Virus record (IMG/VR): IMGVR_UViG_2740892439_000009
Source: a virus
Lineage: Duplodnaviria > Heunggongvirae > Uroviricota > Caudoviricetes
DNA: 64,000 bases
Strand: one strand, 5' to 3'
Shown: positions 7,416-40,148 of the stretch, in pieces
Position numbering within the stretch: position 1 is the stretch's first letter
How the letters are laid out: the number at the start of each line of letters is the position of its first letter
Position numbers and translations under genes: made by a program
The notes under the pieces: generated by a model
Seen by the model: the letters and a program-made list of their open reading frames with translations, nothing else
What the model was told of the DNA's origin: nothing
Database searches by the model: none

Positions 7416-7486
7416 AAAAAAATCAGGAAGAGTATCAAAAGATAACCGGCACGATAGCTCTTGGTGACGGCGCTGTAGCAAAGCGT

Positions 7487-11008: not shown

Positions 11009-11798
11009 CCAGACGTTACCTGAGCTGGGCTCAGAAGTCATGCAGGATATCTATCGCTGCGCTATCCAACGTTACCCGAATGAAGCGTGTGGCTTTCTTG
11101 TGCGCACACAGGGTGAGAAATATCGCTTTATGGAAGCGATGAATGTCTCTGAAACGCCACGTGAGGATTTTGTCATGCGTGCCAGCGACATTATTGCGGC
11201 CGAAGATGCTGGGGAAGTGATCGCTATTTGGCACTCTCACGTTGAGCGCAGCGCAGAGGCGTCAGACCCGGATCGCTCCGGGTGCGAGGCGACGGAACTA
11301 CCGTGGATGATTCTGGCAATTCGCAAAAATGTGGAAAGCGATATGCCATTCCACTTTAGCGAAATGAACGTCATTTATCCGTGTGGTTTTGAGATGCCCT
11401 ACCTCGGGCGCCCATACGTATTCGGTGTGTTTGATTGCTGGATGCTGTGCCGCGATTACCTAAAGCGTGAATTTGACGTTGAGCTGAATGCAAACGCCCA
11501 CCTGCATATTCCTTCTTGGTACACGGGGGACAACGACATCCTCGACCAGAACTACCGAAATGAAGGACTTGTCCGCATGGCGCCGGGGACGGAACCCCAG
11601 CGCGGCGACATCTTCTTCATCCAGTACGGGAAAATGCCAGATCACTGCGCGGTATACATCGGCGACGGCATGATCATGCATCACCAGATCGACCGTCTCA
11701 GCTGTCGGGCTTATTACGGTGGGATGTATCAGAAGCACACGACGCATCACCTGCGTCACAGGGATTTACTCAAGGGAGACGAGACGTGTCTGAATTAG
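11001..11798 (+). CDS. Tail assembly protein K (JAB/MPN plus NlpC/P60-like)
   Basis: ACGFLV..G, HSH, DCW.L.RD and HCA.YIGDG motifs parallel lambda gpK; ATG 11001 overlaps L stop. Confidence 0.75.
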   Translation: MSNQTLPELGSEVMQDIYRCAIQRYPNEACGFLVRTQGEKYRFMEAMNVSETPREDFVMRASDIIAAEDAGEVIAIWHSHVERSAEASDPDRSGCEATELPWMILAIRKNVESDMPFHFSEMNVIYPCGFEMPYLGRPYVFGVFDCWMLCRDYLKREFDVELNANAHLHIPSWYTGDNDILDQNYRNEGLVRMAPGTEPQRGDIFFIQYGKMPDHCAVYIGDGMIMHHQIDRLSCRAYYGGMYQKHTTHHLRHRDLLKGDETCLN

Positions 11799-12407: not shown

Positions 12408-15400
12408 TTGAACATGTATCAGTTCAAGAAAAAGAGATTGCCCCTCCTGATTGCGGGAGCGGGCGGCAAAAAGAGCTCAGGCTCAAGCCGTACACCAGTT
12501 GAAGCGGATGATACCGTTAATTCGCGGGCCATGGCGTCTATCCTCGATCTGCTCGGGGAAGGTGTTGTTGGTGGGCTTATTAACGGTGCTAAATCTATCT
12601 TCATCGATGGCGTGGCGCTGGAGAACGAAGACGGATCATTCAACTATTCCGGTGTAACCTGGGATTTCCGGGATGGTTCACAAGACCAAAGCCCGATGCC
12701 TGGTTTCGATTTTGTCGAAACGCCAAAGGCCGTTAACACACAGCTGAAAACCACAAACGCGGTTACGGTCGCCATCGATAACGACGACGCTGATCGTGTC
12801 CGAGTGATCATGAAGTTCCCGTCGCTGCGTAGCATTGACAAGAAAACAGGGGACACAAACGGTACTTCTGTCCAGTTTAAGTTCCAGCTGGCCAATGGCA
12901 ATGGCTCTTTCTATGACGTGATTGCTACAGGTGAGAGCAGCTCTGACGTGAAGCTGACTGCGAAAAAGACTGGTGTCTACTACCGCAGTTACGAAATCCA
13001 ACTTCCAAAGCCTGGGCGCGCCTATAAAGTGCGCGTGCTTCGTCTCTCCGCCGACAGCAACGATCAGTATCTCTTTAACGATACCTGGGTCGACTCTATC
13101 GGTGAGATCGTTGACACCCCAATGAACTACCCGAACTCCGTTCTGGTTGGCCTTAAGGTTAACTCTGAGCAGTTTGGTAGCTCTATGCCGTCACGTTCGT
13201 ATCTTATCCGTGGCCTCAAAATCCGTGTGCCTTCGAATTATGATGAAAATACGAACACTTATAACGGCGTTTGGGATGGAACCTTTAAGCTTCTGTCGTC
13301 TTCCAACCCTGCCTGGATTCTGTTCGATCTGCTGACCAATGCTCGTTATGGCCTCGGCAAATTTGTTTCGGAGTCAATGATTGACCTTGGTAAGCTTTAT
13401 CAGATCGGTCGCTACTGCGACGAAGAGGTTGATGATGGCTTTGGCGGCAAAGAAAAACGCTTTGCAATCAACACCCAGATCACCAGTCGTCAGGACGCTT
13501 ATCGTCTGATTCAGGATATTGCCGGCGCTTTCCGTGGCATGGTTTTCTGGGCTGGTGGCATGGTGAATATCATGCAGGACAGCCCGTCTGACCCTGTCAT
13601 GCTCTTTACCAATGCGAACGTAAAAGATGGCCTGTTTACCTATAAAGGCTCAGCTCGAAAAGACCGGCCGTCCGTAGCGTTGATCACTTATAACAACAAA
13701 CAAGACGGCTATAAGCAGAACGTTGAGTATGTTGAAGATCAGGAAGCGATGGCCCGATACGGGGAGCGCAAGACCGAGGCCGTTGCGTTCGGATGCACCA
13801 GCCGAGGTCAGGCTCATCGTGTAGGTTTGTGGCTGCTCTATACCGCGCGTATGGAGTCAGACATGATCACCTTTACCGCGGGCCTGGACGCCTCGTTCCT
13901 GATGCCGGGCGAAACCGTTCTGATCCAGAACAAATATCGTGCCGGCAAACGCAATTCCGGTCGCATTGTCTCTTTCACCAAAAACAGCATCACCCTCGAT
14001 GCACCTGTCTCTCTGAAAAAGAGCGGTAGCTTCATCCGTATCATCAATCAGGAAGGCAAAATCGTTGAGCGAGACATCAACGAGACCGGCGACAACATCA
14101 CTAAAGTTACCTTCAAGACGGCGTTGGCCACAGCCGATCAACCAGTAGCGAATGGCGTCTGGACGATCACCGAACCAGACCTTGTTCCAATGCGGGCGCG
14201 CGTTGTCGCTATCGCGCAAGGTGAAACCCCGGGGTCGTTTGATATCACGGTGGTGCAGAACAATGCATCTAAGTACCAGGCGATTGATAACGGGGCCGCG
14301 CTCGTTCCAGAAAATACGACGGTTCTTGATCCCACATATTCCAAACCGAGCAACCTGGTCATCTCAGAAGGCACCTATCTGTCCAGTCCGGGCAACTTGT
14401 CCGTGAAGCTGATGCTTGCCTGGGAAGGTAAATCACCAGAATACTGGGTCAGCTGGCGCCGCTCCGACGAGGGCAACGTCTCCAACTGGCAATCTGCCCG
14501 CGCCACGGAAGAACAATATGAAATCGTCAATGTTGCCGAAAATGGGCGATATGACTTCCAGCTGTATTCCGTTTCCTTCGGCGGCAAAAAATCCGAGATC
14601 ATTACTGCTGTCTATCAGGTAAAAGGCACGATGACGCCGCCAGGGGCGCCCACATCACTCACCGCGGTGGGGGATTATCGTAACGTGGTATTGAATTGGG
14701 TTAACCCTGATTCAGTCGACCTCGCGCAGATCAACGTGTATGCGTCCAAAACAAATAAGCTGGACACCGCAACACTCATTGCTCAGGCCGCAACAACGAC
14801 TTTCACTCACGCTGGCCTGGGTGACAACGAGACCTGGTATTACTGGATTCGTGCGGTAAACAAACGTGGGATGGTAGGCCAGCCGAACTCGAACCTCGGT
14901 ACAGAGGCCACCACTCGCGACGTATTGTCTTTCCTGAAAGATAAGATCACATCTTCTGAACTCGGCAAGGAGCTGCTCGACGAAATCGACAGCAAAGCCA
15001 CTCAGGAGGCGGTAGACAACGCCATTGGCGAGGTTCAGAACTCAGTCAACGAGTCTATCCAGCAAGTTGAAAACGATCTGGCGCAAACCTCCTCCGAAAT
15101 TAAGGCGCAGGTTGACTCTGTCAATCAGTCGCTGAAAGAGGACATAAAGACCGTCAATCAGACGATTGTTGACAACATCGATACCGTCAACCAGACGATC
15201 AATACCAACATCTCCAACGTAAACAACCAAATTGAAGCTGCAAAACAGTCTATTAAAGACGGCGACGCGGCTCTGTCGCAGGAGATTAAGAATGCGCAGT
15301 CATCACTGACAACGTCGCTGTCCCAGACCAGCAAAGATCTGACTGCGGCCATTCAGAAAGAGACGAATGACCGTATTGCAGATGTTAATGACGCAGCCAA

Positions 15401-15614
15401 GCAAGCGGCCGACCAACTGCTGAGCGCGAAGAATGAGCTGAAAACCTCTATCGATAGCTTGTCTGAGGTTGTGACCTCCGGTGACGAAAACCTCGCGCGA
15501 CAGATCTCGCAGATTGCCGCTGGCACAGGGGAACAGTTTGACTCTCTGAAAATCTGGTATTTCGACCAGGACGCTGAAGGCTGGACGGAAGATGATAATG
15601 CTACACGCCAATGA
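12408..15614 (+). CDS. Tail tip / host specificity protein, lambda J-like N-terminal and central part
   Basis: Motifs NPAWILFDLLTNARYGLGKF, GFGGKEKRF, AMARYGERKTEAVAFGCTSRGQAHRVGLWLL and KITSSELGKELL parallel lambda J; stop overlaps next start (ATGA). Confidence 0.8.
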   Translation: MNMYQFKKKRLPLLIAGAGGKKSSGSSRTPVEADDTVNSRAMASILDLLGEGVVGGLINGAKSIFIDGVALENEDGSFNYSGVTWDFRDGSQDQSPMPGFDFVETPKAVNTQLKTTNAVTVAIDNDDADRVRVIMKFPSLRSIDKKTGDTNGTSVQFKFQLANGNGSFYDVIATGESSSDVKLTAKKTGVYYRSYEIQLPKPGRAYKVRVLRLSADSNDQYLFNDTWVDSIGEIVDTPMNYPNSVLVGLKVNSEQFGSSMPSRSYLIRGLKIRVPSNYDENTNTYNGVWDGTFKLLSSSNPAWILFDLLTNARYGLGKFVSESMIDLGKLYQIGRYCDEEVDDGFGGKEKRFAINTQITSRQDAYRLIQDIAGAFRGMVFWAGGMVNIMQDSPSDPVMLFTNANVKDGLFTYKGSARKDRPSVALITYNNKQDGYKQNVEYVEDQEAMARYGERKTEAVAFGCTSRGQAHRVGLWLLYTARMESDMITFTAGLDASFLMPGETVLIQNKYRAGKRNSGRIVSFTKNSITLDAPVSLKKSGSFIRIINQEGKIVERDINETGDNITKVTFKTALATADQPVANGVWTITEPDLVPMRARVVAIAQGETPGSFDITVVQNNASKYQAIDNGAALVPENTTVLDPTYSKPSNLVISEGTYLSSPGNLSVKLMLAWEGKSPEYWVSWRRSDEGNVSNWQSARATEEQYEIVNVAENGRYDFQLYSVSFGGKKSEIITAVYQVKGTMTPPGAPTSLTAVGDYRNVVLNWVNPDSVDLAQINVYASKTNKLDTATLIAQAATTTFTHAGLGDNETWYYWIRAVNKRGMVGQPNSNLGTEATTRDVLSFLKDKITSSELGKELLDEIDSKATQEAVDNAIGEVQNSVNESIQQVENDLAQTSSEIKAQVDSVNQSLKEDIKTVNQTIVDNIDTVNQTINTNISNVNNQIEAAKQSIKDGDAALSQEIKNAQSSLTTSLSQTSKDLTAAIQKETNDRIADVNDAAKQAADQLLSAKNELKTSIDSLSEVVTSGDENLARQISQIAAGTGEQFDSLKIWYFDQDAEGWTEDDNATRQ

Positions 15615-18600
15615 GCGTCACCAGCGATGGCTGGCTGAAAGCGAACAATCCGACCTCAACCTGTCGTTCCCCTAACGGCTTGACGATCGATGCCCATGCT
15701 TATCGTTTCATTAAGATGCGCATTAAAAAGGTTGGCAACCCAACCTGGAACGCCAAAATGTTCTGGATCGGCGCTGATGAAACCGGCTGGAATGCTGGTC
15801 GCTCCGTGGTTATCAATGAACCGGAATACGATGACAAGGGTATTGCGATTCTGACCCTGCACGACATTGAGTGGCGAGATTCGACAACGATTCGTCGTTT
15901 CCGCTTCGATTTCACTTCAGGTCAGGATGCGGACAATTACCTGTTATTCGACTGGATCGCCGTCGGTCGACCGACGCCGGGCGCAGGCATGGCCGCGTTA
16001 CAGGAAGAGCAGCAGGCTCGTGCGAATGCAGATACCGCCGAAGCGCAGGCGCGCAGCACATTGGCTGCACAAATCCGCGGTTCCTCTGAAAGCGGAAATC
16101 TGGACGACATTCGCTCCGGTCTGATCTATCAGGAGAAAAATGCTCGTATCACCGCCGATGCTGCGGAAGCGAGTGCGCGTGAATCCCTGCAGACTGAATT
16201 CAACAGAAACAAAGCCTCTGTTGCAGAAGAGCTGCATACGCTGTCCACTGAACAAGCTTCTCAGGCAAGCAAGATTACCGGGTTGCAAACAAGCCTTGGC
16301 CAGAAGGCCGATGCCAGTGCAGTACAGACAATTTCCCAGAAGGTTGAAGAGCAGGGCAACACCCTTAAATCACAAGGTGCGGCATTGTCTACGCTGGATA
16401 ATCGCGTAGGAAGTGTTGAGTCTGGTGTATCTGCGAATAGCAAGGCGATCACGGGTCTACAGTCGACCGTAACCCAGCAGGATAAAACCCTTAGCAGCCA
16501 GAGTGAAAGCATCACCACCCTGAATAACTCGCTGAGCGATATCCAGAGCGATACCGATACTGCCAAAAGCAACCCGAGTAATTTGCTGGTTAACGCCTCC
16601 TTTGAGCGTGACCTGGCAGGGTGGTCTGCAGGGAACAGCGTATCCAATGTTATCAAAGCGAGTGCGCCCCATTCTGGTAGCAAAATTCTTGTTTGCGCCG
16701 CTGGCACGGTGCAAATCACGCAATCTGTAAGCGTCGTCGAAGGGCGGACATACAAGCTGTCCTCTTTTGTGCGCTGCACCACTGATGCGGTGATCAGCAG
16801 CCCTGGCAACAACAAACTGCGTATTGGCGCGGCTACGTTGCTCAAAGAGATTCCGATCCGTCCGGAGAATCTGCCCAAAGATGAAACATGGAAGGAGGTC
16901 TCTGATACCTGGAAGGCGACGCTGACCGGTAAAGTTGACGTATCGATCATGTCTTCTCTCAAAACCGGTTCTCAGTACTTCGATGATGTTGGTTTTGTTG
17001 ACGTCACTGATGCTCTGGCGATTGAGGCGAACGCCAGTGCCACCAATGCTTTGACCTCTCGGGTATCGTCTGTTGAGGGCACCATCACAAGTCAGGGGCA
17101 ACAGATCACTTCGATGCAGAACAGTATCAAGAACAAAGCTGACGCCTCAGCTGTGACTAATCTGACAAACCGCGTAACTGCTGCCGAAAATCAGATCTCC
17201 AGCCAGTCCCAGAGCATCACCAGCCTGTCAAATTCGCTGGATAACGCCAATGCTGATGCGGATGCCTCGAAAGCGATCATCGGCAACATGCTCAAAAACA
17301 ACTCTTTTGAACGTGGTTTCGAAGGTTGGGAGTATGTTGGTTGGACTCTGCTGGAGGCCCAAAACCCCAAATCGGGGAAATACATCATCCAGGCGGGCAA
17401 ACTGGCCTCTGGCGGTGACTCGGGCTGCAACCAAACGATCGAGCTGCAGGCTGGCAAGACTTATCGTATCGGCGCATGGGTTCGCAAATCCGCTGACTTC
17501 GCGATTAATAATGCCGGCAACAACAAAATTAGCCTTCGAAACGCAGATCTTACGCCAATAAAGGATATCCCGATCACTGGCGCCGGGCTGTCGACGAACT
17601 GGGCGCTTATTAGCGGCGAGTATACGCCAGCCAAAACCGCGAGCGTGGTTGTGTCTCTGCGCGCAAGTGTCGCTTCAGGCTATATGTATCTCGATGACGT
17701 CTTCTGCGTTGACGTGAGCAATGAGAAAGCGATTGATGCGACGTCCAATGCGTTATCAACCCTCAACAGCACCGTGACCCAGCAGGGAAAAGACATTACG
17801 TCTAACTCCAACAGCATCACTTCGCTGTCAAACCAGATGGTTAACGGCCGCCAGAACATGTGGGTGCGTAGCGTATACAACGTACAACTGGCGAACAATA
17901 CCACTGAGCCGACCTTTAGCGATATCAACGGTAAGGCGCCAATCTCGATCGATGAGGTTCCTGACGCGGCAAAACTGGACTTTGTGAGCGCCGGCAGTTA
18001 CGTGATCGCGCATTACAAAGCCTTCGTGAAAGTCAATGCTGATACCACCATCACTATGGCACCAGGGTCTCGTGTTTTTGATGATACGGGCGCCGTGTAC
18101 GTGAACGGTGTTAGGGTTGCCTTTGGTAATGCGAGCTGGAATACGGTTAGCTTTGATCTGAAAGCTGGCTGGAGCACGGTTGAGTTCTTGGTGAACCAAT
18201 GGACTGGTCAGGCTTACATTAACCTCGGCTTTAAACTGTCCGAGAAGGTAGCCCAGCTGAATTCTGCTCTTGGGATGAACGCGCTTTCGAATGCCATTAG
18301 CGCCGTCACCTCAAACGTCAGCACCGTAGGTGATCGCGTCACGAGCACCTCACAGAGCGTTACTGACCTGCGAAATAGCCTCGAACAGACCAACGCAAAT
18401 CTAGCGAATAAGGCAGATGCACAGGCGCTGTCTACGCTGCAAAATACGGTCTCCAAGCAGGGGGATACGATTTCCAGCCAGGGTAACAGCATCACGAACC
18501 TGAATAACACCCTGACCGCTGCCAGAAACGCCGGTGACAACCTGATCCCGAACTACGATTTCCTGCAGGGTGCAACTGCGTGGGATATCCAGTATCCGGC

Positions 18601-21600
18601 GGGCGTCGCTTTTGGCAACTTCGGTGATGGTAAGGCTGGGGTTAAGCTGAACCGGACGACCACGACCAGCCCAGGCATCTTCTCCAACAACAACAAGCCG
18701 CTGCCGCTTAATGGTCAGCGCAAATATCGTGTTGTGGTTAAAGCCAAGGGCGTGTCCGGGGCGATGAACATGTTGATCCGGCGCCAGAACAAAATCGGCC
18801 AGACCGACAGCAATTATGAAGATAAAAACGTCACACTCACCAGTGAGTGGCAGACCATTACCTGGGAAACTGGGCTTACTGCCTCTAACGCTGATGGTCA
18901 GAACTTTAAGCTTTACGCGCACCCGGCTAATGCCGAAATCTGGGTTGATACCTTTAAGGTCTTTGATATCACGGATGAGGTGAAGATCAAGGCTAATAGC
19001 GATGCGCTGTCTACGTTGTCGAGCACGGTGACGCAGCAGGGTGACAAGATCACCAGTCAGGGCAACAGCATCACTAAGTTGACCAATGACCTCGAAGTCG
19101 CTGACGCAAACATCGCGAAAAAGGCCGATCAGTCGGCAGTCACTACGCTGACAGGTCGGGTAGAGAAGACGGAGTCCGGTCTGACGGCGGCGAACAGCAA
19201 CATTACGTCGCTCAGCAGCTCTCTGAACCAGCAATCCAAACGCGGCGCCAATCTGCTTCCTGATGGCACTTTTGAAAGCTACGCGGTTGGCCATAATCTA
19301 TCAAATAATCGCGTTATCGTGACCACTGATGACTCGCATGGCGGTAGTAAGTGCATCCGTGTGACGCGTCCGAATGATTACAACGCTAACGCAACTGATA
19401 ACAGCGATAATCACATTTTCAGCGGGTTCCAGGTTCGCGATAACGCAGTCTTCTATATGGAATGCTGGGTTAAGCTGGATGCCAAGAGCACCGCTATGGC
19501 CGAGAATGCGCAGATCTCCATTGGCTTGTCGCTCCAGTATCAGGATAACTCCTGGCAGTGGCCAGCAGTAACCAAAGCGGCGAAAGATCTGTCTACAGCT
19601 CAATGGACGAAGGTTTCTGGTTACCTGAAATCAACGAAGAGCGGTATTAAGCAGGCAATGGTGAGGATTTCTATTCCTAACGTTAGCAGCGTTAAGGCGG
19701 GAAACTCATTCCTCATTGATGACCTGGTCATTACCGAAGTGACTGATGCCTACAATGCGCAAAGTACAGCAGACGCTAATGCCAATGCGATTTCGACACT
19801 GGACTCGACCGTCTCCCAACAGGGTGACCAGATCACCAGTCAGGGTAACAGCATCACCAAACTGACAAATGACCTGGCAACGACCAATAACAACGTCAGT
19901 AAAAAAGCGGATCAGAGCGCTTTAAGCGTGTTGTCCGGGCGCGTCGATCAAACAGAATCGGGCTTATCCTCTGCGAATAGCAGTATCACTGCGCTTAATT
20001 CATCTGTACGCGCAGGGAATGCGACAAGTGGCGATTTGATTAGCAACCCGACATTTGACCCAGAGTTTAGTCAGATGGGCTTCACTGTGGTTTCCAGCTC
20101 GTCTGAGGGCGTGCCAGCCAATTGCCCATACGCTTATGTTGCACGCATTGCGGCTCGCGACCATCACCCCAATTTTGCTGCTATTCCGGCGACATTGGGG
20201 GATGTCTATGAAATGTCTGCTCTCGTCGCGTGTGGCACCGGCTCCGCTGATTTCAACCTGTATCTCGGAACCGCAACACGGCCAAGCGGCAGCGTGGGCG
20301 CGCCTCTGTCATCCGGCGGCAACCGCAAGGCGTCGGCCACATGGCAGCGAGTAACCTGGCGATTCAAAATTACTCAGGGGATTGTCGATCGCGGCTTCTT
20401 CCGTCCATTCCTGCAAATTAACCAGTCCAGCCCATTCGGCACCGTCTGGTATGTGACTGACTGGCATCTGCGGAACGTGACCGACTCCTCCAAAGTCCAG
20501 GATTCCCTCGACGCCACGGCGAAAGCGGTTGATTCGCTGACCTCTACGGTAAATCAGCAGGGGGAGAATATCTCCAGCATTGGTACACGTACTACCAATC
20601 TTGAGAATAATTTGAGAACAACAAATGCAAACGTTGCTCAAAAAGCGGACGCCAATGCTCTGACGGCACTGACCAACCGTGTTACCCAGACCGAAAAAGA
20701 CATTAACTCAACGAGTTCTTCTGTCACGAATCTGAACAACAAGGTTGATGCCATTTCTGTTGGCGGTACAAACCTGATTAAGAACTCTGGCGATATGACC
20801 GGCTGGTCGAACGTTACCAGCGACACGTATCGTGGTAACGCGGTAATTGGCGCAACTGTAAAAGCCGGCTCCGGCTACAAGGATCTGCGGGAAATCACGC
20901 TTGAGTCGCCGGTCGATGCAGGTGAGTACGTTTACAGCTTCTATGCAAAAGGCGGTGTTGCTGGCCAGATTATGACGGCGTTCTTCTACAATCCGAACAC
21001 TACAACGTCTATCGAGACCAGCCAGGGTGCGAAAGGTAACAACAGTGATGGCCGTGCGCAGTTCACGCTGACCACTTCATGGTCCCGCTATTGGGTTAAG
21101 TGGAAACAGACACCTACCACGAGTACCAAGCGCCTGATTCTGTGTCGTATCGAGAGCAATACCTCCAAAGACCAGACGGTGTACATCAACAGTCCGAAGT
21201 TTGAGGTAGGTAACGTTGTTTCCGACTGGAACGAGTCTCCGTCTGATAGTGCCAGTGCGTCGGCTGTGGACTCGCTGACAACGAAAGTGAATCAGCAGGG
21301 CACTTCCATTAGCTCTATCGGAAATCGCACCACATCGTTGGAAAACGGGTTATCGACAGCTCAAAACAATATTGCCAAGAAGGCTGATGCTTCTGCATTG
21401 CAGGATCTCCGGAACACGGTGACATCTCAGGGTGATGATTTAACTGCGGCGAACAGCAGCATTACCAGCCTGCATGCCTCGATGAACCGTCGCACTGTGT
21501 TTACTGTCACTGCACGGGGTAATGGCAACAGCGTTACCCATGGGGTGTTTGATGAAAGCGGCAAGAATCTGTTTACCCCTGGTCGCAGCTGGGCGCTGGT

Positions 21601-23413
21601 CACTTTTGCAAAACACAGCGACGGATCAACGGTGATTGCGACCTCCAAAACATACGATGTCTTTGGCAGCGCGAATAATGGCGCCACGATGTCGGCTGAT
21701 ATCGAGGCACTGGCCAGTGGGACTTACGTTTGCGTCCTGACATTCGATGAGCCAACTGGCAACCGAGGTAAGGTGTTGTCTGCCCTGGAATCTCTTGGTG
21801 GCACTTCCGAAGTCGTTAACTCTCTGCCGTATCGTGGCGCCTACATTCTCCTTGGCCGCAAAGGTATGAAGCCGGGCGATGGTCTGGAACTGCGTGCGCC
21901 AACCGGTGGCGACGGCACCGCCCACATTTCGACCTCAGTCGAGTTTGTGAACGGGGTAATGATGGGGCTGGGCGCCGCTGGTGGTGTGATGATGAAGGCT
22001 GATGCGAACGCATCTGCAATTACCACGCTCCAGAATACAGTGAAGACCCAAGGGGATAATATTGACTCCCTGAGCTCCTCGACAACAGCGCTGGAAAACA
22101 GCCTTGCGTCCAGTAACGTCAGCGTGGATGCAGCAAGCCAGATCCCCGGTAACCTGATCGTAAACCCGTCTTTTGAGCGTGGTACGGAGGGCTACACTGG
22201 TTGGAGCGGTATTGCCACGGTGGCAACGCTGCAGGTTCCACATCTTGGCACCAAAGCCGCCAAACTAGCGGCGGGTGGTTCTGCAGGCGTGGGCCAGAAG
22301 ATCTCCTTCAAAAAGGATCGGTCGTACAAAATTGGTATTTGGGCAAAGCAGGACCCTAATACCACCATTCAGTCGACCGACAACACAAAATTCCGTGTGG
22401 CTGACGGTACTGGCCTGATTGCAAGTAAGGTTTATGGTCCGTTCACCTCGAACTGGCAGGAGGTGTCATGGACATGGAAGGCGACAAAGGATGTCCTTGC
22501 TGACGTTCAGTTCACTGCTTTCTTGTCAGCCGGCGCGATGTACTTTGATGATTTTTACGTCGTCGATGTGACCGACTCAGTTGAAACTCAGGCGAACTCG
22601 AGTGCGATCACGAAGCTCGATAGTCGTGTGACCAAGACAGAGAATGACATCACCAGCCAGGGCAGCCAGGTTACGCAACTTAAGAATGACCTTGCTACCA
22701 CAAACACAAATGTTTCGAAGAAAGCGGATGCAGCTGCGTTAACGGCATTAACGAACCGCGTCACGCAGAATGAGAAAGAAATTGGAACCCAGAGCAGCCA
22801 GACAACTTCGCTCAAAAACTCTTTGAGCACTGTTCAGGCAATGGGAAGCAACCCGTGGTTTGATGGTTCTCTGGAGACGTACTCCGAAAACCAGCAGATC
22901 AGCGGCTCGCGCGCGGTCGTCGTCAGCTCTCAGAAACGAAGCGGAACGAAGTCGTTGCGTGTTTCCCGCGGCGCCGGTGAGGGCGGAAACAGCGATAAAA
23001 CCATCGGTAAGTGGATTGCTCTGCGTGAAAATGCGGTATTCCGCATTGAACTCTGGGCGATGATGCCGGCAGATCAGTCGCCATCATCCGGGTGGTCAAC
23101 GCTCGTTGGTTTGCAGACCCAAAACGCTGCCAACAACAATAACTGGCCGACGGCAATCACTATCAATGAAGCCGCATTGGGTGCAAGAGGCGCATGGAAG
23201 AAATTCACCGGTACGCTCCGTGTAGCCGCTGGCCACACTCGCGGCGCATTTTGGGTATCTACCGCGGCACAACTGGCACTGGTACACCGGGGTATGATCT
23301 GTATATCGATGACGTTGTTGTCACCGATATCACCGACGCAAAAGAGGCTCAAGATTCGGCTAATTCGAACGCATCCGCGCTCACCAGCCTTACCTCACGT
23401 GTTACCAATGTAG
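15611..23413 (+). CDS. Giant modular fibre segment (about 2600 aa) of alternating globular and coiled-coil modules
   Basis: About 10 repeats of a globular unit ending in a Y.DDV.V.DVTD-like motif followed by a coiled-coil unit (STV.QQG..ITSQGNSIT.L.N.L). Confidence 0.7.
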   Translation: MSVTSDGWLKANNPTSTCRSPNGLTIDAHAYRFIKMRIKKVGNPTWNAKMFWIGADETGWNAGRSVVINEPEYDDKGIAILTLHDIEWRDSTTIRRFRFDFTSGQDADNYLLFDWIAVGRPTPGAGMAALQEEQQARANADTAEAQARSTLAAQIRGSSESGNLDDIRSGLIYQEKNARITADAAEASARESLQTEFNRNKASVAEELHTLSTEQASQASKITGLQTSLGQKADASAVQTISQKVEEQGNTLKSQGAALSTLDNRVGSVESGVSANSKAITGLQSTVTQQDKTLSSQSESITTLNNSLSDIQSDTDTAKSNPSNLLVNASFERDLAGWSAGNSVSNVIKASAPHSGSKILVCAAGTVQITQSVSVVEGRTYKLSSFVRCTTDAVISSPGNNKLRIGAATLLKEIPIRPENLPKDETWKEVSDTWKATLTGKVDVSIMSSLKTGSQYFDDVGFVDVTDALAIEANASATNALTSRVSSVEGTITSQGQQITSMQNSIKNKADASAVTNLTNRVTAAENQISSQSQSITSLSNSLDNANADADASKAIIGNMLKNNSFERGFEGWEYVGWTLLEAQNPKSGKYIIQAGKLASGGDSGCNQTIELQAGKTYRIGAWVRKSADFAINNAGNNKISLRNADLTPIKDIPITGAGLSTNWALISGEYTPAKTASVVVSLRASVASGYMYLDDVFCVDVSNEKAIDATSNALSTLNSTVTQQGKDITSNSNSITSLSNQMVNGRQNMWVRSVYNVQLANNTTEPTFSDINGKAPISIDEVPDAAKLDFVSAGSYVIAHYKAFVKVNADTTITMAPGSRVFDDTGAVYVNGVRVAFGNASWNTVSFDLKAGWSTVEFLVNQWTGQAYINLGFKLSEKVAQLNSALGMNALSNAISAVTSNVSTVGDRVTSTSQSVTDLRNSLEQTNANLANKADAQALSTLQNTVSKQGDTISSQGNSITNLNNTLTAARNAGDNLIPNYDFLQGATAWDIQYPAGVAFGNFGDGKAGVKLNRTTTTSPGIFSNNNKPLPLNGQRKYRVVVKAKGVSGAMNMLIRRQNKIGQTDSNYEDKNVTLTSEWQTITWETGLTASNADGQNFKLYAHPANAEIWVDTFKVFDITDEVKIKANSDALSTLSSTVTQQGDKITSQGNSITKLTNDLEVADANIAKKADQSAVTTLTGRVEKTESGLTAANSNITSLSSSLNQQSKRGANLLPDGTFESYAVGHNLSNNRVIVTTDDSHGGSKCIRVTRPNDYNANATDNSDNHIFSGFQVRDNAVFYMECWVKLDAKSTAMAENAQISIGLSLQYQDNSWQWPAVTKAAKDLSTAQWTKVSGYLKSTKSGIKQAMVRISIPNVSSVKAGNSFLIDDLVITEVTDAYNAQSTADANANAISTLDSTVSQQGDQITSQGNSITKLTNDLATTNNNVSKKADQSALSVLSGRVDQTESGLSSANSSITALNSSVRAGNATSGDLISNPTFDPEFSQMGFTVVSSSSEGVPANCPYAYVARIAARDHHPNFAAIPATLGDVYEMSALVACGTGSADFNLYLGTATRPSGSVGAPLSSGGNRKASATWQRVTWRFKITQGIVDRGFFRPFLQINQSSPFGTVWYVTDWHLRNVTDSSKVQDSLDATAKAVDSLTSTVNQQGENISSIGTRTTNLENNLRTTNANVAQKADANALTALTNRVTQTEKDINSTSSSVTNLNNKVDAISVGGTNLIKNSGDMTGWSNVTSDTYRGNAVIGATVKAGSGYKDLREITLESPVDAGEYVYSFYAKGGVAGQIMTAFFYNPNTTTSIETSQGAKGNNSDGRAQFTLTTSWSRYWVKWKQTPTTSTKRLILCRIESNTSKDQTVYINSPKFEVGNVVSDWNESPSDSASASAVDSLTTKVNQQGTSISSIGNRTTSLENGLSTAQNNIAKKADASALQDLRNTVTSQGDDLTAANSSITSLHASMNRRTVFTVTARGNGNSVTHGVFDESGKNLFTPGRSWALVTFAKHSDGSTVIATSKTYDVFGSANNGATMSADIEALASGTYVCVLTFDEPTGNRGKVLSALESLGGTSEVVNSLPYRGAYILLGRKGMKPGDGLELRAPTGGDGTAHISTSVEFVNGVMMGLGAAGGVMMKADANASAITTLQNTVKTQGDNIDSLSSSTTALENSLASSNVSVDAASQIPGNLIVNPSFERGTEGYTGWSGIATVATLQVPHLGTKAAKLAAGGSAGVGQKISFKKDRSYKIGIWAKQDPNTTIQSTDNTKFRVADGTGLIASKVYGPFTSNWQEVSWTWKATKDVLADVQFTAFLSAGAMYFDDFYVVDVTDSVETQANSSAITKLDSRVTKTENDITSQGSQVTQLKNDLATTNTNVSKKADAAALTALTNRVTQNEKEIGTQSSQTTSLKNSLSTVQAMGSNPWFDGSLETYSENQQISGSRAVVVSSQKRSGTKSLRVSRGAGEGGNSDKTIGKWIALRENAVFRIELWAMMPADQSPSSGWSTLVGLQTQNAANNNNWPTAITINEAALGARGAWKKFTGTLRVAAGHTRGAFWVSTAAQLALVHRGMICISMTLLSPISPTQKRLKIRLIRTHPRSPALPHVLPM

Positions 23414-24570
23414 AAGGGCAGGTGACATCCCAGGCGTCTCAGCTGTCCTCTTTGACGTCCCAGGTGAATGATGCGTCTTCGAAGGTTGATCAGATGGCGC
23501 AAACCATCACCAACAACGAGAAAACGCAGTCGTCGCTGAATACCAGCTTGCAGTCGCAAATTGATGCGCAGGCATCGGCAAACATCAAGAACCAGACGGA
23601 GTTGAATAACGCCACCACTTCGATGGCGGCAATTAAATCAACTCAGCAGACTCAGGCCACAACGATTAGTGCACTGTCTCAGCAGCAAACGAATTTAACG
23701 GCCCAGGTAGGAGGCCAGTCAGCCGAGCTGCAGGAGCTGAAGAAAACGGTTGTTGAAAACGGCAACGTTAACAGCACCTGGATGGTCAAAATGGAAACCA
23801 ACAGCAACGGTAAAAAGTATGCTGCTGGTATAGCTTTAGGTATCGATGGCAAAAATTTGCAGAGCCAGTTTCTGGTTCAGGCTGATCGCTTCGGCTTAAT
23901 CAACACCTCTAACGGGAATACGACTACACCTTTCGTTATCGAAAATGGCGTTGCGTATATTAATGCCGCTGTCATTAAAGATGGCTCGATCACCAATGCG
24001 AAAATTGGAGGCGAAATCCGTTCTGACAATTTCGTTAATGGTTCAAATGGCTGGAGAATTGGAAAAGACGGTAGTTCACAGTTCAACAATGCGATATTCA
24101 GAGGTCATATTGAAGCGCGCAGTGGTACGTTCAAAGGAACCCTGGAAGCTCAAAACTTTATTGGTGATATCGCTGTAGCTCGGCGTTATGCGGATTTATC
24201 GTTCCGTCGTAACAACACCGTACAGCGTGATGGTCGTTACCAGAACCGCGGATACGGTATGACTATTGTGCTAAGTTGTACCCTGATATATCAGGTTACT
24301 GGGGGGAATGAGGATCGTAACGGTTATATTGTTGAAATGACATTTAACGTTGGCGGTCAGGAGGTAACTCGCCGTTTCCCGATCAACCCGCGAATGAATA
24401 TGGGCTCCTACTCGATGGAGTTTCGTTTTGCAGCGGATATTCCAGGCAACTATGACAACGTCCCGTTCTTTGTAAGAGCACGTGGTCGGGATGCTACTTG
24501 GGACTACCAGTGTTATGTAGAAAACATCACTGCCACTGCTTTCCGTACAAACAGCAACTCATTCAGCTAA
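23194..24570 (+). CDS. Fibre C-terminal segment carrying the lambda J-like C-terminal domain
   Basis: Continues the module motif (YDLYIDDVVVTDITD) in a different frame; from about 23780, WMVKMETNSNGKKYAAGIALG...SQFLVQADRFGLI...GTLEAQNFIGDI parallels the lambda J C-terminus. Confidence 0.65.
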   Translation: MEEIHRYAPCSRWPHSRRILGIYRGTTGTGTPGYDLYIDDVVVTDITDAKEAQDSANSNASALTSLTSRVTNVEGQVTSQASQLSSLTSQVNDASSKVDQMAQTITNNEKTQSSLNTSLQSQIDAQASANIKNQTELNNATTSMAAIKSTQQTQATTISALSQQQTNLTAQVGGQSAELQELKKTVVENGNVNSTWMVKMETNSNGKKYAAGIALGIDGKNLQSQFLVQADRFGLINTSNGNTTTPFVIENGVAYINAAVIKDGSITNAKIGGEIRSDNFVNGSNGWRIGKDGSSQFNNAIFRGHIEARSGTFKGTLEAQNFIGDIAVARRYADLSFRRNNTVQRDGRYQNRGYGMTIVLSCTLIYQVTGGNEDRNGYIVEMTFNVGGQEVTRRFPINPRMNMGSYSMEFRFAADIPGNYDNVPFFVRARGRDATWDYQCYVENITATAFRTNSNSFS

Positions 24571-24697
24571 CATGGCGCCCCTTTGGGGCGCCCACTAAAC
24601 CGTATTAACTCAAGGAAGAGTAAATTATGGCAATGTATGAAGTTGGCACCATAACGGGTGCTGCAAACCAGGCAAAGGTTACAGGTATTTCCACTAA

Positions 24698-26065
24698 GTG
24701 TCGGAGACCGCCCTGGGTATTCAAGAGGGTTCGATTCTTGTCATTTATCGCAATGGAAGTGCCGATCTGTATGCCATCAAATCCGTTAATAACGACACTC
24801 AACTGACCCTGACGAGAAACATTACAACAGCTTTTTCTGGTGCGAAATATGGAATTATCACATCAGAAACAGCCAGCACATCGTCTTTTGCTAATCAACT
24901 CGCCAGTGCATTCACTCTGTGGCGTAATGTTGTCCAGGGGTGGTCTACAGCACTAACAGGTAGTGGCAATATTACAATAACAGACCCTTTAACGGGTGTA
25001 TCTGTGACTGTTCCAGCAATTTCAGGAATGGCGAAAGCGTCCGATCTCACAGCACTTAGCAACTCGCTGAAAGATGTAGCGAAGACTACAACGGCAAACA
25101 CATGGACGCAGGCGCAGACGTGGAACGCAGCATCTACGTTTAAAAATAACCTTACGGTGAACGGCACTTTTACAGTAAATGGGAATTTCTACGGCAAGCA
25201 GCTTGCTGGAGGCCACATAGAGTTAACAGGGGCGACCCCTTATATCGACTTTCACCACGGCAACACCACAACAGACTACACACATCGAATTATTACTGAG
25301 AATGGGGCATTGGCTGTTTATCCGGGCTTACGCGTCCGTGGTGGATTGGGGATTTATGGTGTAGCTACGCAATACGGAGATCAGTACGGGCAGGGATTTA
25401 TCACCCGTCTTAACACAGATCCAGGTAACGTAGCTAACGGCACAATCATTGCCTCTCCACGCGTCACAACTAGGTTCAACACTCGCGGCAGTGACACAAA
25501 TGTTGACGGCGGACAGGGGGCCATGTGGTTTGAGGAGCAGGTGGGGACGAACCATAGGCTGGTATTCATGCTTGGTGGTTTCAGTCAGCCTGTCCAATAT
25601 TGGCAACACTTGCCTGATGGGCGGATCTATAGTAGTTCTCGCGGCGATGTTGCATTTAACGGGACGTCCGACGAACGGTTGAAACATAGTATAGAACCGA
25701 CTGACGGCCATTTGTCAGTCGATCGCATTCGTCAGCTTGAGCTGGTGACGTTCGTCTATAACGATGACGAGCAGGAACGAGTACGCCGCGGGATTATTGC
25801 GCAGCAGGCTCAGCTGGTCGACAAACAGTATGTTAAGCAGATTAACACATCGTATATTCTCAACGGTGAGAAAGTGGACGATGACCGTCTGCAACTCGAT
25901 AATAACGTTATTCTAATGGATACATTGGCGGCGGTTAAAGTACTGATTCAGCGAGTTGAAGAACTTGAGAATAAACTTAACTCATCAGAAGGGAGCGACG
26001 CCATAAATACAAACCAGAATACCTTCGATACAGGCGTGGCCATGAGAAGTGAGCAATCAAATTAA
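24698..26065 (+). CDS. Side tail fibre with C-terminal intramolecular chaperone-like domain
   Basis: C-terminal SDERLKHSIEP motif region; an apparent N-terminus (ATG 24627, MAMYEVGTITGAANQAKVTGISTK) lies in another frame and joins at about 24698. Confidence 0.55.
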   Translation: MSETALGIQEGSILVIYRNGSADLYAIKSVNNDTQLTLTRNITTAFSGAKYGIITSETASTSSFANQLASAFTLWRNVVQGWSTALTGSGNITITDPLTGVSVTVPAISGMAKASDLTALSNSLKDVAKTTTANTWTQAQTWNAASTFKNNLTVNGTFTVNGNFYGKQLAGGHIELTGATPYIDFHHGNTTTDYTHRIITENGALAVYPGLRVRGGLGIYGVATQYGDQYGQGFITRLNTDPGNVANGTIIASPRVTTRFNTRGSDTNVDGGQGAMWFEEQVGTNHRLVFMLGGFSQPVQYWQHLPDGRIYSSSRGDVAFNGTSDERLKHSIEPTDGHLSVDRIRQLELVTFVYNDDEQERVRRGIIAQQAQLVDKQYVKQINTSYILNGEKVDDDRLQLDNNVILMDTLAAVKVLIQRVEELENKLNSSEGSDAINTNQNTFDTGVAMRSEQSN

Positions 26066-27439: not shown

Positions 27440-27587
27440 ACCCCAGACCGTGGGCGTACAATTCTGCGATGGGGCTAACCCTATCTACATCAGCAAGGAC
27501 GACGCCCTGACAGAAGAAACTGAGAGGGAAATCCTGATCCACAACACGCTGGGTGAGCGAATCTGTGATTGGGGGAAAGGTACATAA
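27360..27587 (+). CDS. Outer-membrane lipoprotein spanin (Rz1-like)
   Basis: Signal peptide with lipobox ISGC; starts inside the Rz-like gene in a different frame. Confidence 0.5.
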   Translation: MRRLMKSGLRMLLPFIASFAISGCVIKPQTVGVQFCDGANPIYISKDDALTEETEREILIHNTLGERICDWGKGT

Positions 27588-27598
27588 GGAACTGACGT

Positions 27599-27640
27599 AA
27601 GATGCGCTTGCGTTGATGTGAGGCGCATCTGTTTCTTCTA
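27599..27640 (+). terminator. Rho-independent terminator after lysis cassette
   Basis: AGATGCGC ... GCGCATCT stem followed by a T-rich tract. Confidence 0.55.
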
Positions 27641-27667
27641 TCTGTAATCGAGTAAATGCCGTCATCC

Positions 27668-27702
27668 AAGTTCACCGAACTTGATTATTCTTCACCGAAC
27701 TT
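27668..27702. promoter_or_regulatory. Direct repeat TTCACCGAACTT x2, first copy within palindrome AAGTTCaccGAACTT
   Basis: Copies at 27671-27682 and 27691-27702, about 130 bp upstream of ORF 27831. Confidence 0.35.
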
Positions 27703-27830
27703 CACTCAAGGTAATCTTGAATCATCCTGCTTAATGATGTAGATTTAACCAACAGCTGACGATGTCGTCAGCCGTTAGACCTGAAAAGGTGCCGCAATGA
27801 CATTCAATTGTTAACGGCTAAGGTGGAAAC

Positions 27831-28223
27831 ATGCACAACGCACTGAACGCATCCCGTTCTATACAAACGATCCGTGATTGCACGAGCGTTATTGAGACTC
27901 ATGTGCTGGCTCAGCACAAGATTGAAGTCCGTAAGCTCAACAATGACGCGGTTGATCTAAAAGACACTCGCTTCATCATCACCTTTAAAAATGATGTTGA
28001 GAAGCCGTGTGCCAGCGTAAAGCCGTTAGCGGAAGCAATCTTCCTGAACGGACGTGTACGTTTTGTCGTAAAACCTGATAAGCAATACCCTGAATTTTTG
28101 CGTCATTTAAAAGAGTTTTCTGAGGTGATAGAACATTCTATTCGTCGCTTCGTACTTGGTCATGGTAGCATTAGTAGTCATGTAAAGGCTGATAGATCTG
28201 CTACCAAATGGCTCCTACACTAG
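27831..28223 (+). CDS. Hypothetical protein (accessory gene)
   Basis: 130-aa ORF; 16-nt overlap with the next ORF. Confidence 0.4.
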   Translation: MHNALNASRSIQTIRDCTSVIETHVLAQHKIEVRKLNNDAVDLKDTRFIITFKNDVEKPCASVKPLAEAIFLNGRVRFVVKPDKQYPEFLRHLKEFSEVIEHSIRRFVLGHGSISSHVKADRSATKWLLH

Positions 28224-28960: not shown

Positions 28961-28965
28961 AAATA

Positions 28966-28989
28966 AGGCGACTTTGGTCGCCTTTTTTG
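28966..28989 (+). terminator. Rho-independent terminator
   Basis: GGCGAC ttt GGTCGCC followed by TTTTTT. Confidence 0.6.
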
Positions 28990-29136
28990 TTAACAGCCAT
29001 TGATTCTCGCCTAAAAATTCTAAGGCAGCACCTACCATTTAACCTTTACACCACAGCCGTAGGCATTTAGGCTATATCACATATAAGAAAACAAGTTGTT
29101 TCAGACGATAATTATATACGCAAAGGGAACTCTCCA

Positions 29137-40143: not shown

Positions 40144-40148
40144 ATTTA

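What the first reader, a model, noticed from the sequence alone, without database searches (positions are those of the whole stretch)
12408..24570. Lambda J-type tail tip protein split around a roughly 2,900-aa modular insertion
ORF 12408-15614 parallels lambda J through the KITSSELGKELL region, and the C-terminus of ORF 23194-24570 (from about 23780) parallels the lambda J C-terminal domain. Between them lie about ten alternating modules: a globular unit ending in a Y.DDV.V.DVTD-like motif and a coiled-coil unit (STV.QQG..ITSQGNSIT.L.N.L ... KKAD.SAL). The short coiled-coil linker of lambda J therefore appears expanded into a very long fibre-like array. The J-N/fibre junction is an ATGA overlap; the 15611-23413 / 23194-24570 junction is a 220-nt overlap in different frames.
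Basis: partly seen in the sequence, partly recalled or inferred. Interest (0 to 1): 0.7.

Follow-up and report, generated by a model that had tools for sequence, protein, structure and literature searches.

The report
Giant lectin-studded phage tail-tip fibre gene
The three reading frames are one already-known 4,052-residue phage tail-tip fibre gene (a lambda J relative whose short helical shaft has grown into a long coiled coil carrying 11 sugar-binding-type domains), and it looks split here only because two single bases are missing, most likely through sequencing errors.

Summary
The observed features are real. ORF 12408-15614 is homologous to the lambda J hub and FNIII region. The end of ORF 23194-24570 is homologous to the J beta-prism fibre. 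Between them lie 11 globular domains alternating with 12 coiled-coil segments.

The "split" is not an architecture. In every relative checked the three ORFs form one uninterrupted 4,045-4,065-aa gene. These relatives include five E. coli and Klebsiella phage-plasmid records read directly, and 296 plasmids cover at least 80% of the region. The window differs by two 1-nt deletions, at about 15599 (GG to G) and about 23261 (CCC to CC). Restoring them gives a 4,052-aa protein, 99.3% identical and gapless to WP_078207493.1. The window carries about ten more isolated 1-nt deletions of the same kind (tape measure twice, side fibre, helicase and others). It has no nonsense mutations in 18 structural genes. 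This pattern fits assembly indel error better than decay.

The globular domains have carbohydrate-binding folds: CBM_4_9/CBM16-like, a CBM11-like domain shared with the R4C megatron, and an ILEI/PANDER-like domain. Giant J proteins of this kind are known: phiKO2 gp21 has 3,433 aa, PHROG 2589 covers the family, and hundreds of clusters match. The likely function is a long multivalent glycan-binding central fibre for capsulated hosts.

The parts
12414..24570 (+). One gene: giant J-type tip attachment / central tail fibre protein. After restoring two missing bases it is 4,052 aa and about 435 kDa.
   Evidence: The repaired translation is 99.3% identical and gapless to WP_078207493.1. A single CDS is annotated in pJN2-26, pECAZ155_2 and pCUVET21-424.2. 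Mass.
12414..14933 (+). J aa 1-840: hub domains plus FNIII domains.
   Evidence: Pfam FNIII-A_GpJ, Phage-tail_3 and fn3. Aligns to lambda J 3-836, E 7e-129. 84% identical to SSU5 J.
14934..15518 (+). CC0, J aa 841-1035: first coiled-coil segment. It begins at the KITSSELGKELL motif, which corresponds to the top of lambda's alpha-helical shaft.
   Evidence: Free of Pro and aromatic residues; heptad score 0.46 against 0.28 background. Shared with SSU5 J.
15599..15600 (+). Frameshift 1: a 1-nt deletion (TGGCT to TGCT) inside domain G0. It creates the apparent ATGA junction.
   Evidence: All of L001-L005 and L011 have the extra G.
15519..15967 (+). G0, J aa 1036-1185: CBM11-like domain. It is conserved as the first globular domain of phiKO2 and 48ST307 J.
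   Evidence: A three-sequence profile hits R4C 'Megatron' 8gtc_M residues 489-618, E 6e-12. The authors call that region a carbohydrate-binding domain (PMC10276861). Homologues shown.
15968..16579 (+). CC1, J aa 1186-1389: coiled-coil segment.
16580..17011 (+). G1, J aa 1390-1533: CBM_4_9 domain.
   Evidence: PF02018 34.4 bits against a 25.9 cut-off.
17012..17857 (+). CC2 - G2 (CBM_4_9, J aa 1625-1768) - CC3: the unit that was modelled.
   Evidence: PF02018 38.6 bits. AF2 pLDDT 85: helix 2-84, beta-sandwich 105-232, helix 234-276. Foldseek top hits are CBM16 2zew/3oeb, E 4e-9, TM 0.75-0.79.
17858..18217 (+). G3, J aa 1816-1935: beta-rich domain of uncertain type.
   Evidence: Only weak matches: sialidase N-terminal region 8um0, E 6e-4, and Pfam Cadherin-like, E 0.013. 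74% identical copies occur twice in 48ST307 J.
18218..20794 (+). CC4 - G4 (CBM_4_9) - CC5 - G5 (CBM_4_9, sub-threshold) - CC6 - G6 (diverged copy) - CC7.
   Evidence: PF02018 27.2 bits (G4) and 23.5 bits (G5). G6 matches the other units internally, E 1e-11 to 1e-23. Coiled-coil statistics.
20795..21241 (+). G7, J aa 2795-2943: CBM-like beta-sandwich.
   Evidence: AF2 strands 22-153, pLDDT about 80-90. Foldseek hits to CBM4, CBM16 and CBM30 and to the Tuc2009 tripod (BppUct-A-L) chain 5e7t_B, E 1e-5 to 1e-4.
21242..21967 (+). CC8 - G8 (J aa 3026-3185): ILEI/FAM3/PANDER-type domain.
   Evidence: PF15711 37.4 bits against a 27 cut-off. Foldseek hits FAM3B 2yoq and the POMGnT1 N-terminal (stem) domain 5ggj, TM 0.75.
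21968..22882 (+). CC9 - G9 (CBM_4_9, J aa 3247-3388) - CC10.
   Evidence: PF02018 38.9 bits. phmmer hit to CBM16 2zew, E 2e-8.
22883..23337 (+). G10, J aa 3491-3642: CBM_4_9-type domain that contains frameshift 2.
23261..23263 (+). Frameshift 2: a 1-nt deletion (ACCCGC to ACCGC). It creates the 220-nt out-of-frame overlap.
23338..23727 (+). CC11, J aa 3643-3772: last coiled-coil segment.
   Evidence: Shared with SSU5 and Cyrano J.
23728..24192 (+). J aa 3773-3927: beta-prism central straight fibre (Pfam Phage_Tail_Tip).
   Evidence: PF09327, E 1e-43. Aligns to the lambda gpJ713 fragment 133-292.
24193..24567 (+). J aa 3928-4052: distal receptor-binding domain, not lambda-like. It differs between the E. 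coli and Klebsiella versions.
   Evidence: The lambda alignment ends at 3927. Klebsiella records stop aligning at query positions 11682-11743.

Best explanation
Window 12414-24570 is a single gene. It encodes the tip attachment / central tail fibre protein (a gpJ homologue) of an SSU5-related phage-plasmid from E. coli or Klebsiella.

Shown. The N-terminal 840 aa are the J hub and FNIII domains. The last roughly 280 aa are the J beta-prism fibre plus a non-lambda receptor-binding domain. The roughly 50-aa alpha-helical shaft of lambda J is replaced by about 2,900 aa. This stretch holds 12 heptad-periodic helical segments (about 1,300 aa) interrupted by 11 globular domains with carbohydrate-binding-type folds.

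Shown. The apparent division into three ORFs comes from two single-base deletions that no relative shares.

Inferred. These deletions are consensus errors of the assembly rather than biology. They belong to a window-wide set of about twelve isolated 1-nt deletions in short G/C runs.

Inferred from gpJ being a trimer. The protein forms a trimeric, segmented coiled-coil fibre roughly 160-190 nm long. Each of its 11 nodes would carry three lectin-like domains, 33 in total.

Inferred mechanism. The lectin domains bind capsule or O-antigen sugars weakly and multivalently. This would hold the virion and let the distal receptor-binding domain reach an outer-membrane receptor through a thick polysaccharide layer. 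The fibre would then have to bend or collapse for the hub to reach the membrane and open as in lambda.
For: One ORF in all relatives read directly: L001-L005 and L011, 4,045-4,065 aa. The region matches 420 plasmids, 296 of them over at least 80% of its length, and 15 complete E. coli genomes.

The two deletions are mapped. The repaired protein is 99.3% identical and gapless to WP_078207493.1.

Error-like pattern. The 18 structural CDSs show no nonsense codon and no isolated insertion. They carry 5 isolated 1-nt deletions, spread across the three longest genes. More such deletions lie at 33998, 46868, 56412 and 59040 (both at CCTGG) and 61353. Window-unique substitutions in J are 13 synonymous to 5 non-synonymous.

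Anatomy. Pfam and PDB sequence hits. AF2 models with pLDDT 85 and 81. Fold matches to CBM16, CBM4 and CBM22, and to PANDER and the POMGnT1 stem domain. Heptad and composition analysis.

Graded series of J lengths. Lambda 1,132 aa (PMC11101478), SSU5 1,385, Cyrano 1,575, Kpn74 3,088, 48ST307 3,193, HJK1 3,391 and phiKO2 3,433.

Host bias. 55 of 65 phage records and 402 of 420 plasmids that carry the modules are from Klebsiella. SSU5 itself, a Salmonella phage, lacks the modules.
Against: There is no read-level data, so genuine recent frameshift mutations cannot be excluded. One related Klebsiella plasmid (p2 of Kp1604) could not be induced as a phage (PMC8969562).

Trimer state, in-line geometry and fibre length are extrapolated from monomer AF2 models and from lambda. 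No sugar binding has been shown for any module. G3 has no confident fold assignment. I found no electron micrograph of a virion with this J.
Confidence: 0.85

Rival explanations
1. The two frameshifts are real mutations. On this reading the element is a decaying, defective phage-plasmid whose J, tape-measure and side-fibre genes are pseudogenes.
For: About ten CDS-disrupting 1-nt deletions across the window hit several essential tail and replication genes. A related Klebsiella plasmid, p2, yielded no phage particles on induction.
Against: Every lesion is a 1-nt deletion in a short G/C run, and two lie at Dcm CCTGG sites. There are no nonsense mutations, no frameshifting insertions and no larger deletions in 18 structural genes. 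The deletions are spread roughly in proportion to gene length. Window-unique substitutions in J remain biased towards synonymous changes, 13 to 5, including downstream of the first frameshift. The closest relatives, at 99.7% identity, are all intact.
Confidence: 0.13
2. The junctions are programmed -1 ribosomal frameshift sites, or the three ORFs are expressed as separate hub, fibre and tip proteins that assemble non-covalently.
For: Both downstream frames are -1 relative to the upstream frame. ORF2 begins with an ATG that overlaps the ORF1 stop codon.
Against: Neither permissible slip window contains an in-frame X XXY YYZ heptamer. Neither junction is conserved, because all relatives are continuous in frame. 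Both junctions fall inside globular domains (G0 and G10), so separate products would carry truncated folds.
Confidence: 0.01
3. This is a functional rival to the lectin mechanism. The array is mainly a passive length spacer, and the CBM-fold domains are structural beads or decoys with no sugar-binding role.
For: Only fold and family membership are shown, not ligand binding. The modules are highly diverged and are swapped as cassettes.
Against: At least five distinct lectin-type folds have been recruited into one fibre: CBM_4_9, CBM11-like, ILEI/PANDER, the G7 sandwich and G3. That is hard to explain for pure spacers. The same folds act as sugar binders in other phage adhesion devices (R4C megatron, PMC10276861). 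There is a strong bias towards capsulated hosts.
Confidence: 0.2

Closest known systems
Bacteriophage lambda gpJ (tip attachment protein J, central tail fibre; PDB 8iyk, 8xci, 8xcj)
   Same: The hub domains, FNIII domains, the start of the alpha-helical shaft and the beta-prism fibre are homologous (E 7e-129 and 4e-14). The gene order is the same: tape measure, M, L, K, I, J, side fibre.
   Different: About 2,900 aa are inserted where lambda has about 10 aa, between lambda positions 836 and 845. The distal receptor-binding domain is unrelated to lambda's LamB-binding Ig-like domain. The score against NCBIfam lambda_TipJ is 525 bits, below its 1,950-bit cut-off.
Klebsiella phage phiKO2 gp21 (3,433 aa, annotated 'similar to lambda J protein'); also J of phages 48ST307, Kpn74 and HJK1; PHROG 2589
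   Same: The plan is the same: J hub, coiled coil, the same G0 domain (47% identity), then a CBM/coiled-coil array, then the J tip. phrog_2589 scores 4,490 bits. From memory, not checked here: Casjens et al. 2004 (J Bacteriol 186:1818) already described this as an exceptionally long central tip tail fibre.
   Different: The number and order of modules differ. This J is longer, at 4,052 aa. It sits in an SSU5-type circular phage-plasmid, not an N15-type linear one. One four-module block is about 93% identical at nucleotide level to 48ST307, which points to cassette exchange.
Salmonella phage SSU5 tail protein SSU5_020 (1,385 aa) and Escherichia phage Cyrano J (1,575 aa)
   Same: These belong to the same phage-plasmid family. 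J aa 1-1036 is 70-74% identical, and CC11 plus the beta-prism also align.
   Different: SSU5 joins CC0 directly to CC11, so it has no globular modules. The roughly 2,600 aa from G0 to G10 are absent.
Carbohydrate-binding decorations of other siphophage tail tips: R4C megatron carbohydrate-binding domain (8gtc), mycobacteriophage Douge central fibre gp20 (8zdp), and the Tuc2009 baseplate tripod BppUct-A-L (5e7t)
   Same: Lectin-type beta-sandwich domains are grafted onto tail-tip or central-fibre proteins.
   Different: Those proteins carry one or a few such domains. Here 11 are strung along a coiled coil within a single polypeptide.

Membership tests
lambda gpJ-type tip attachment / central tail fibre protein | N-terminal hub and FNIII domains homologous to gpJ | tested here: met
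   Pfam FNIII-A_GpJ 109.9 bits (cut-off 27) and Phage-tail_3 110.8 bits (cut-off 23). phmmer against 8iyk_J, E 7e-129 over J 20-859.
lambda gpJ-type tip attachment / central tail fibre protein | C-terminal beta-prism fibre (Pfam Phage_Tail_Tip) | tested here: met
   PF09327 148.6 bits (cut-off 22). 8xcj_Z, E 4e-14.
lambda gpJ-type tip attachment / central tail fibre protein | Position in the tail operon after the tape measure, M, L, K and I genes and before the side fibre gene | tested here: met
   Pfam hits of the upstream ORFs. Annotations of pECAZ155_2 and pCUVET21-424.2.
lambda gpJ-type tip attachment / central tail fibre protein | One continuous polypeptide | tested here: inconclusive
   The window as given has three frames. 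All relatives have one ORF. Whether the breaks are real in this isolate needs the reads.
lambda J itself (NCBIfam lambda_TipJ, NF049904) | Score at or above the curated cut-off of 1,950 bits | tested here: not met
   525 bits. It is a J homologue, not lambda J.
CBM_4_9 carbohydrate-binding modules (CBM4/9/16/22) | Pfam PF02018 gathering score (25.9 bits) | tested here: met
   G1 34.4, G2 38.6, G4 27.2 and G9 38.9 bits pass. G10 (25.5) and G5 (23.5) fall just below. G6 has no hit.
CBM_4_9 carbohydrate-binding modules (CBM4/9/16/22) | Beta-jelly-roll fold | tested here: met
   AF2 model of G2, pLDDT above 90 in the sandwich. Foldseek hits CBM16, E 4e-9, TM 0.75-0.79.
CBM_4_9 carbohydrate-binding modules (CBM4/9/16/22) | Binds a carbohydrate ligand | not testable with these tools
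   Needs glycan arrays or capsule-binding assays.
ILEI / FAM3 / PANDER / POMGnT1-stem domain | Pfam PF15711 gathering score and matching fold | tested here: met
   37.4 bits (cut-off 27). Foldseek 2yoq, E 1e-5, and 5ggj, TM 0.75.
Trimeric alpha-helical coiled-coil fibre shaft | Long helices with heptad periodicity and no helix breakers | tested here: met
   12 segments totalling 1,312 aa. Most have no Pro or aromatic residues; CC1, CC4, CC6, CC9 and CC10 contain a few. Heptad score is 0.44-0.56 against 0.28 background. AF2 predicts helices of 83, 43 and 76 residues.
Trimeric alpha-helical coiled-coil fibre shaft | Parallel trimer, extended in line | not testable with these tools
   Only monomer prediction was available. 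The trimer is inferred from gpJ (PMC11101478).
Programmed -1 ribosomal frameshift | In-frame slippery heptamer and conservation of the frame break | tested here: not met
   No X XXY YYZ heptamer in either slip window. Relatives are continuous in frame.

The most novel reading that the evidence does not exclude
The intact protein may be a central tail fibre roughly 160-190 nm long, nearly as long as the tail itself, displaying 33 lectin-like domains of at least five fold types. It would work as a capsule-spanning, glycan-scanning probe.

In lambda, the receptor signal passes from the receptor-binding domain to the hub through refolding of a 50-residue helical shaft. A 2,900-residue shaft would need a different way to bring the hub to the membrane and open it. 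Stepwise collapse or reeling-in driven by lectin binding is one possibility. No paper I could search describes this architecture or mechanism.
Probability: 0.35. Interest if true: 0.55.

Novelty: already known. Interest (0 to 1): 0.25.

Why it matters
For the scan, this is a caution. Adjacent out-of-frame ORFs that continue one protein domain across the junction are a signature of indel errors, and the whole window shows that signature.

Biologically, the gene family is already catalogued and is widespread in Klebsiella phages and phage-plasmids. However, it is ignored in current work on Klebsiella receptor-binding proteins, which concentrates on the side depolymerases and fibres.

If the giant lectin-studded central fibre does mediate capsule traversal, it would bear on the host range of phage-plasmids that spread resistance genes and on the design of Klebsiella phage therapy. 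It would also raise the question of how a receptor signal is relayed along so long a fibre.

Tried and rejected
- **Long homologue query.** The search for homologous proteins with the 2,550-aa middle ORF timed out. Shorter queries worked but returned only fragments of 700 aa or less. Full-length relatives therefore came from the annotated phage and plasmid records and from the representatives search.
- **Programmed frameshifting.** Rejected: no slippery site and no conservation.
- **Assembly collapse or expansion of repeats.** Rejected. The only DNA repeat family is 101 nt at 61-75% identity. The modules are 25-60% identical at protein level. The array recurs in hundreds of complete plasmids.
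- **A depolymerase or other enzymatic domain in the insertion.** None was found with Pfam, NCBIfam, PHROGs or PDB searches.
- **Literature.** Searches for a description of the giant J in SSU5-type phage-plasmids or weberviruses found none. The phiKO2 paper (Casjens 2004) and Gilcrease & Casjens 2018 are not held, so the phiKO2 statement rests on memory plus the GenBank annotation.
- **Domain G3.** It could not be assigned confidently.
- **Taxonomy of the largest representatives.** Not recoverable.

Full report
**1. The observation**

The three ORFs exist as described: 12408-15614, 15611-23413 and 23194-24570, with an ATGA overlap and a 220-nt overlap.

- ORF1 carries the Pfam domains FNIII-A_GpJ, Phage-tail_3 and fn3.
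- ORF3 carries Phage_Tail_Tip at aa 181-312.
- The upstream ORFs are a lambda-type tape measure, M, L, K (JAB plus NlpC/P60) and I.
- The downstream ORF is a side fibre with a Peptidase_S74 chaperone domain.

Against solved structures, residues 20-859 align to lambda gpJ 3-836 (8iyk, E 7e-129). Residues 3773-3927 align to residues 133-292 of the gpJ713 fragment, about lambda 845-1004 (8xcj, E 4e-14). About 2,900 residues therefore sit where lambda has about ten. That position is inside the alpha-helical shaft (residues 809-861), which lies between FNIII-2 and the beta-prism fibre (PMC11101478).

The internal modules are real diverged repeats.

**2. The 'split' is two missing bases**

The region matches 11 Klebsiella phage records, 420 plasmids (402 from Klebsiella, 7 from E. 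coli) and 15 complete E. coli genomes. All are SSU5-type phage-plasmids of about 110 kb.

In every relative I read, the three ORFs are one open frame of 4,045-4,065 aa:

| Record | Status |
|---|---|
| pJN2-26 | one annotated CDS, 'putative tail fiber protein' |
| vB_KpnS_p4727 | one open frame |
| vB_Kpn_1825-KPC53 | one open frame |
| GArcari-2022b | one open frame |
| pECAZ155_2 (WP_078207493.1) | one annotated CDS, 'phage tail protein' |
| pCUVET21-424.2 (WP_134736790.1) | one annotated CDS, 'phage tail tip fiber protein' |

The window differs from all of them by two 1-nt deletions: TGGCT to TGCT at about 15599, and ACCCGC to ACCGC at about 23261. Restoring the two bases gives a 4,052-aa, 435-kDa protein that is 99.3% identical and gapless to WP_078207493.1. 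The 'start codon' of the middle ORF is an internal Met codon. Both junctions fall inside globular domains, G0 and G10.

**3. Error or decay?**

I compared the window with its two closest references. It carries further isolated single-base deletions in short G/C runs:

| Window position | Gene affected |
|---|---|
| 5617 and 7393 | tape measure |
| 24699 | side fibre |
| 33998 | DnaB-like helicase |
| 46868 | CobT-like gene |
| 56412 (at a CCTGG site) | 5'-3' exonuclease |
| 59040 (at a CCTGG site) | SPFH gene |
| 61353 | hypothetical gene |
| 49230 and 49256 | intergenic |

Across 18 structural and lysis genes there is no nonsense codon and no isolated insertion. The only lesions are five 1-nt deletions, distributed across the three longest genes. 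Window-unique substitutions in J are 13 synonymous to 5 non-synonymous. Neither junction has an in-frame slippery heptamer.

I conclude that these are consensus indel errors, with probability about 0.8. Genuine recent inactivation is the main rival. One related Klebsiella plasmid was reported not to be inducible (PMC8969562). Only the reads can decide.

**4. What the insertion is**

Numbering follows the repaired protein.

- **Coiled-coil segments.** Twelve stretches total 1,312 aa. Most contain no Pro or aromatic residues, and a few contain up to three. Their heptad periodicity is strong, 0.44-0.56 against 0.28 background.
- **G1, G2, G4 and G9** pass the Pfam CBM_4_9 gathering score. G5 and G10 fall just below it. 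G6 is a diverged copy.
- **The CC2-G2-CC3 unit** was modelled with AF2 at pLDDT 85. It is a long helix, a beta-sandwich and a second long helix. Its best structural matches are CBM16, CBM4, CBM22 and CBM61, plus phage fibre CBMs that include the Douge central fibre.
- **G0** is conserved as the first domain in phiKO2 and 48ST307 J. It matches the carbohydrate-binding domain of the roseophage R4C megatron protein at E 6e-12.
- **G7** is a CBM-like sandwich.
- **G8** is an ILEI/PANDER/POMGnT1-stem-type domain.
- **G3** remains unassigned.
- No enzymatic domain was found anywhere in the insertion.

**5. Comparative series**

| Phage | J length (aa) | Note |
|---|---|---|
| lambda | 1,132 | shaft of about 50 aa (PMC11101478) |
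| SSU5 | 1,385 | aligns to J 1-1036 and 3633-3892, so a long plain coiled-coil shaft with no globular modules |
| Cyrano | 1,575 | one extra piece |
| Kpn74 | 3,088 | CBM/coiled-coil array |
| 48ST307 | 3,193 | CBM/coiled-coil array |
| HJK1 | 3,391 | CBM/coiled-coil array |
| phiKO2 | 3,433 | CBM/coiled-coil array |

- A tblastn search with two modules finds 65 phage records, 55 of them from Klebsiella.
- PHROG 2589, a 3,686-position 'tail protein' profile, scores 4,490 bits.
- An exhaustive search finds 686 clusters at 50% identity. Among the best 147, 93 are at least 2,000 aa, 35 are at least 3,000 aa, and the longest is 4,797 aa. At least 35 of the 93 also have both J ends.
- One four-module block is about 93% identical at nucleotide level to the unrelated phiKO2-like phage 48ST307, which indicates cassette exchange.
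- The last roughly 125 aa differ between the E. coli and Klebsiella versions, which is consistent with a swapped terminal receptor-binding domain.

**6. Mechanism (inferred)**

gpJ is a trimer that seals the tail tip and extends the central fibre (PMC11101478). By analogy, the helical segments would form a trimeric coiled coil. At 0.148 nm per residue its length is about 160-190 nm. This compares with about 30 nm for lambda's fibre and about 226 nm for a tail set by the 1,507-aa tape measure. Each of the 11 interruptions would expose three lectin-like domains.

The host bias towards Klebsiella and other capsulated genera suggests a role in crossing the capsule, and SSU5 itself has no modules. 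The fibre would bind capsule or O-antigen multivalently and reversibly, and would let the distal receptor-binding domain reach the outer membrane. How receptor engagement is then relayed to the hub is unknown.

**7. Verdict**

- The observed features are real, but the interpretation as a split gene is wrong.
- The underlying giant J is an already-catalogued protein family. Near-identical RefSeq proteins exist. phiKO2 gp21 is annotated as J-like, and from memory it was described in 2004 as an exceptionally long central tip fibre.
- The domain-level description given here was not found in the literature I could search, but it adds detail rather than a new kind of system.

Noticed in passing
window 5323-9844 (deletions at about 5617 and about 7393): The tape measure gene is 4,524 nt and intact in relatives. 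Here two window-specific 1-nt deletions (CCC to CC, GG to G) break it into three frames.
   Followed up: yes
window 24627-26065 (deletion at about 24699): The side tail fibre gene has a Peptidase_S74 chaperone domain and is 479 aa in relatives. A 1-nt deletion removes its true start, so the listed ORF begins at GTG 24698.
   Followed up: yes
window 33998, 46868, 49230, 49256, 56412, 59040, 61353: There are further isolated 1-nt deletions relative to NZ_CP019002 and NZ_CP098850. They fall in a DnaB-like helicase, a CobT-like gene, an intergenic stretch (two positions), a 5'-3' exonuclease, an SPFH gene and a hypothetical gene. Two of them lie at CCTGG (Dcm) sites. The whole window looks like an unpolished long-read assembly.
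   Followed up: partly
window about 19120-22104 (J aa about 2238-3232): A block of four modules (G5 to G8) is 92.7-92.9% identical at nucleotide level to the J genes of Klebsiella phages 48ST307 and Kp4865-4. 48ST307 is phiKO2-like and carries ParA/ParB genes. This implies recent cassette exchange between different phage lineages.
   Followed up: partly
window about 24090-24570: The distal roughly 125-160 aa of J do not align at DNA level with the Klebsiella versions, but they are conserved among the E. coli plasmids. This looks like a host-specific swap of the receptor-binding domain.
   Followed up: partly
window 40069-40625: A cluster of four tRNA genes (Asn-GTT, Tyr-GTA, Thr-TGT, Ser-TGA), also annotated in pCUVET21-424.2.
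   Followed up: partly
window about 27560-29030, 40800-43150 and 52760-54770: These stretches have no counterpart, or only a weakly similar one, in the closest reference plasmids. They are probably variable accessory cargo of the phage-plasmid.
   Followed up: no
L010 (Klebsiella phage Kpn74, OQ790078.1), J aa about 974-1010: The N-terminal part of the G0 homologue translates to unrelated, arginine-rich sequence before homology resumes at 75% identity. This suggests compensating frameshift errors in that public record.
   Followed up: no
protein database hits P0001-P0083: Word-indexed protein searches returned only fragments of 700 aa or less, most labelled 'partial', and some clusters hold over 100 member sequences. 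In draft assemblies this gene is usually represented as broken pieces on short contigs of about 1-2 kb.
   Followed up: no
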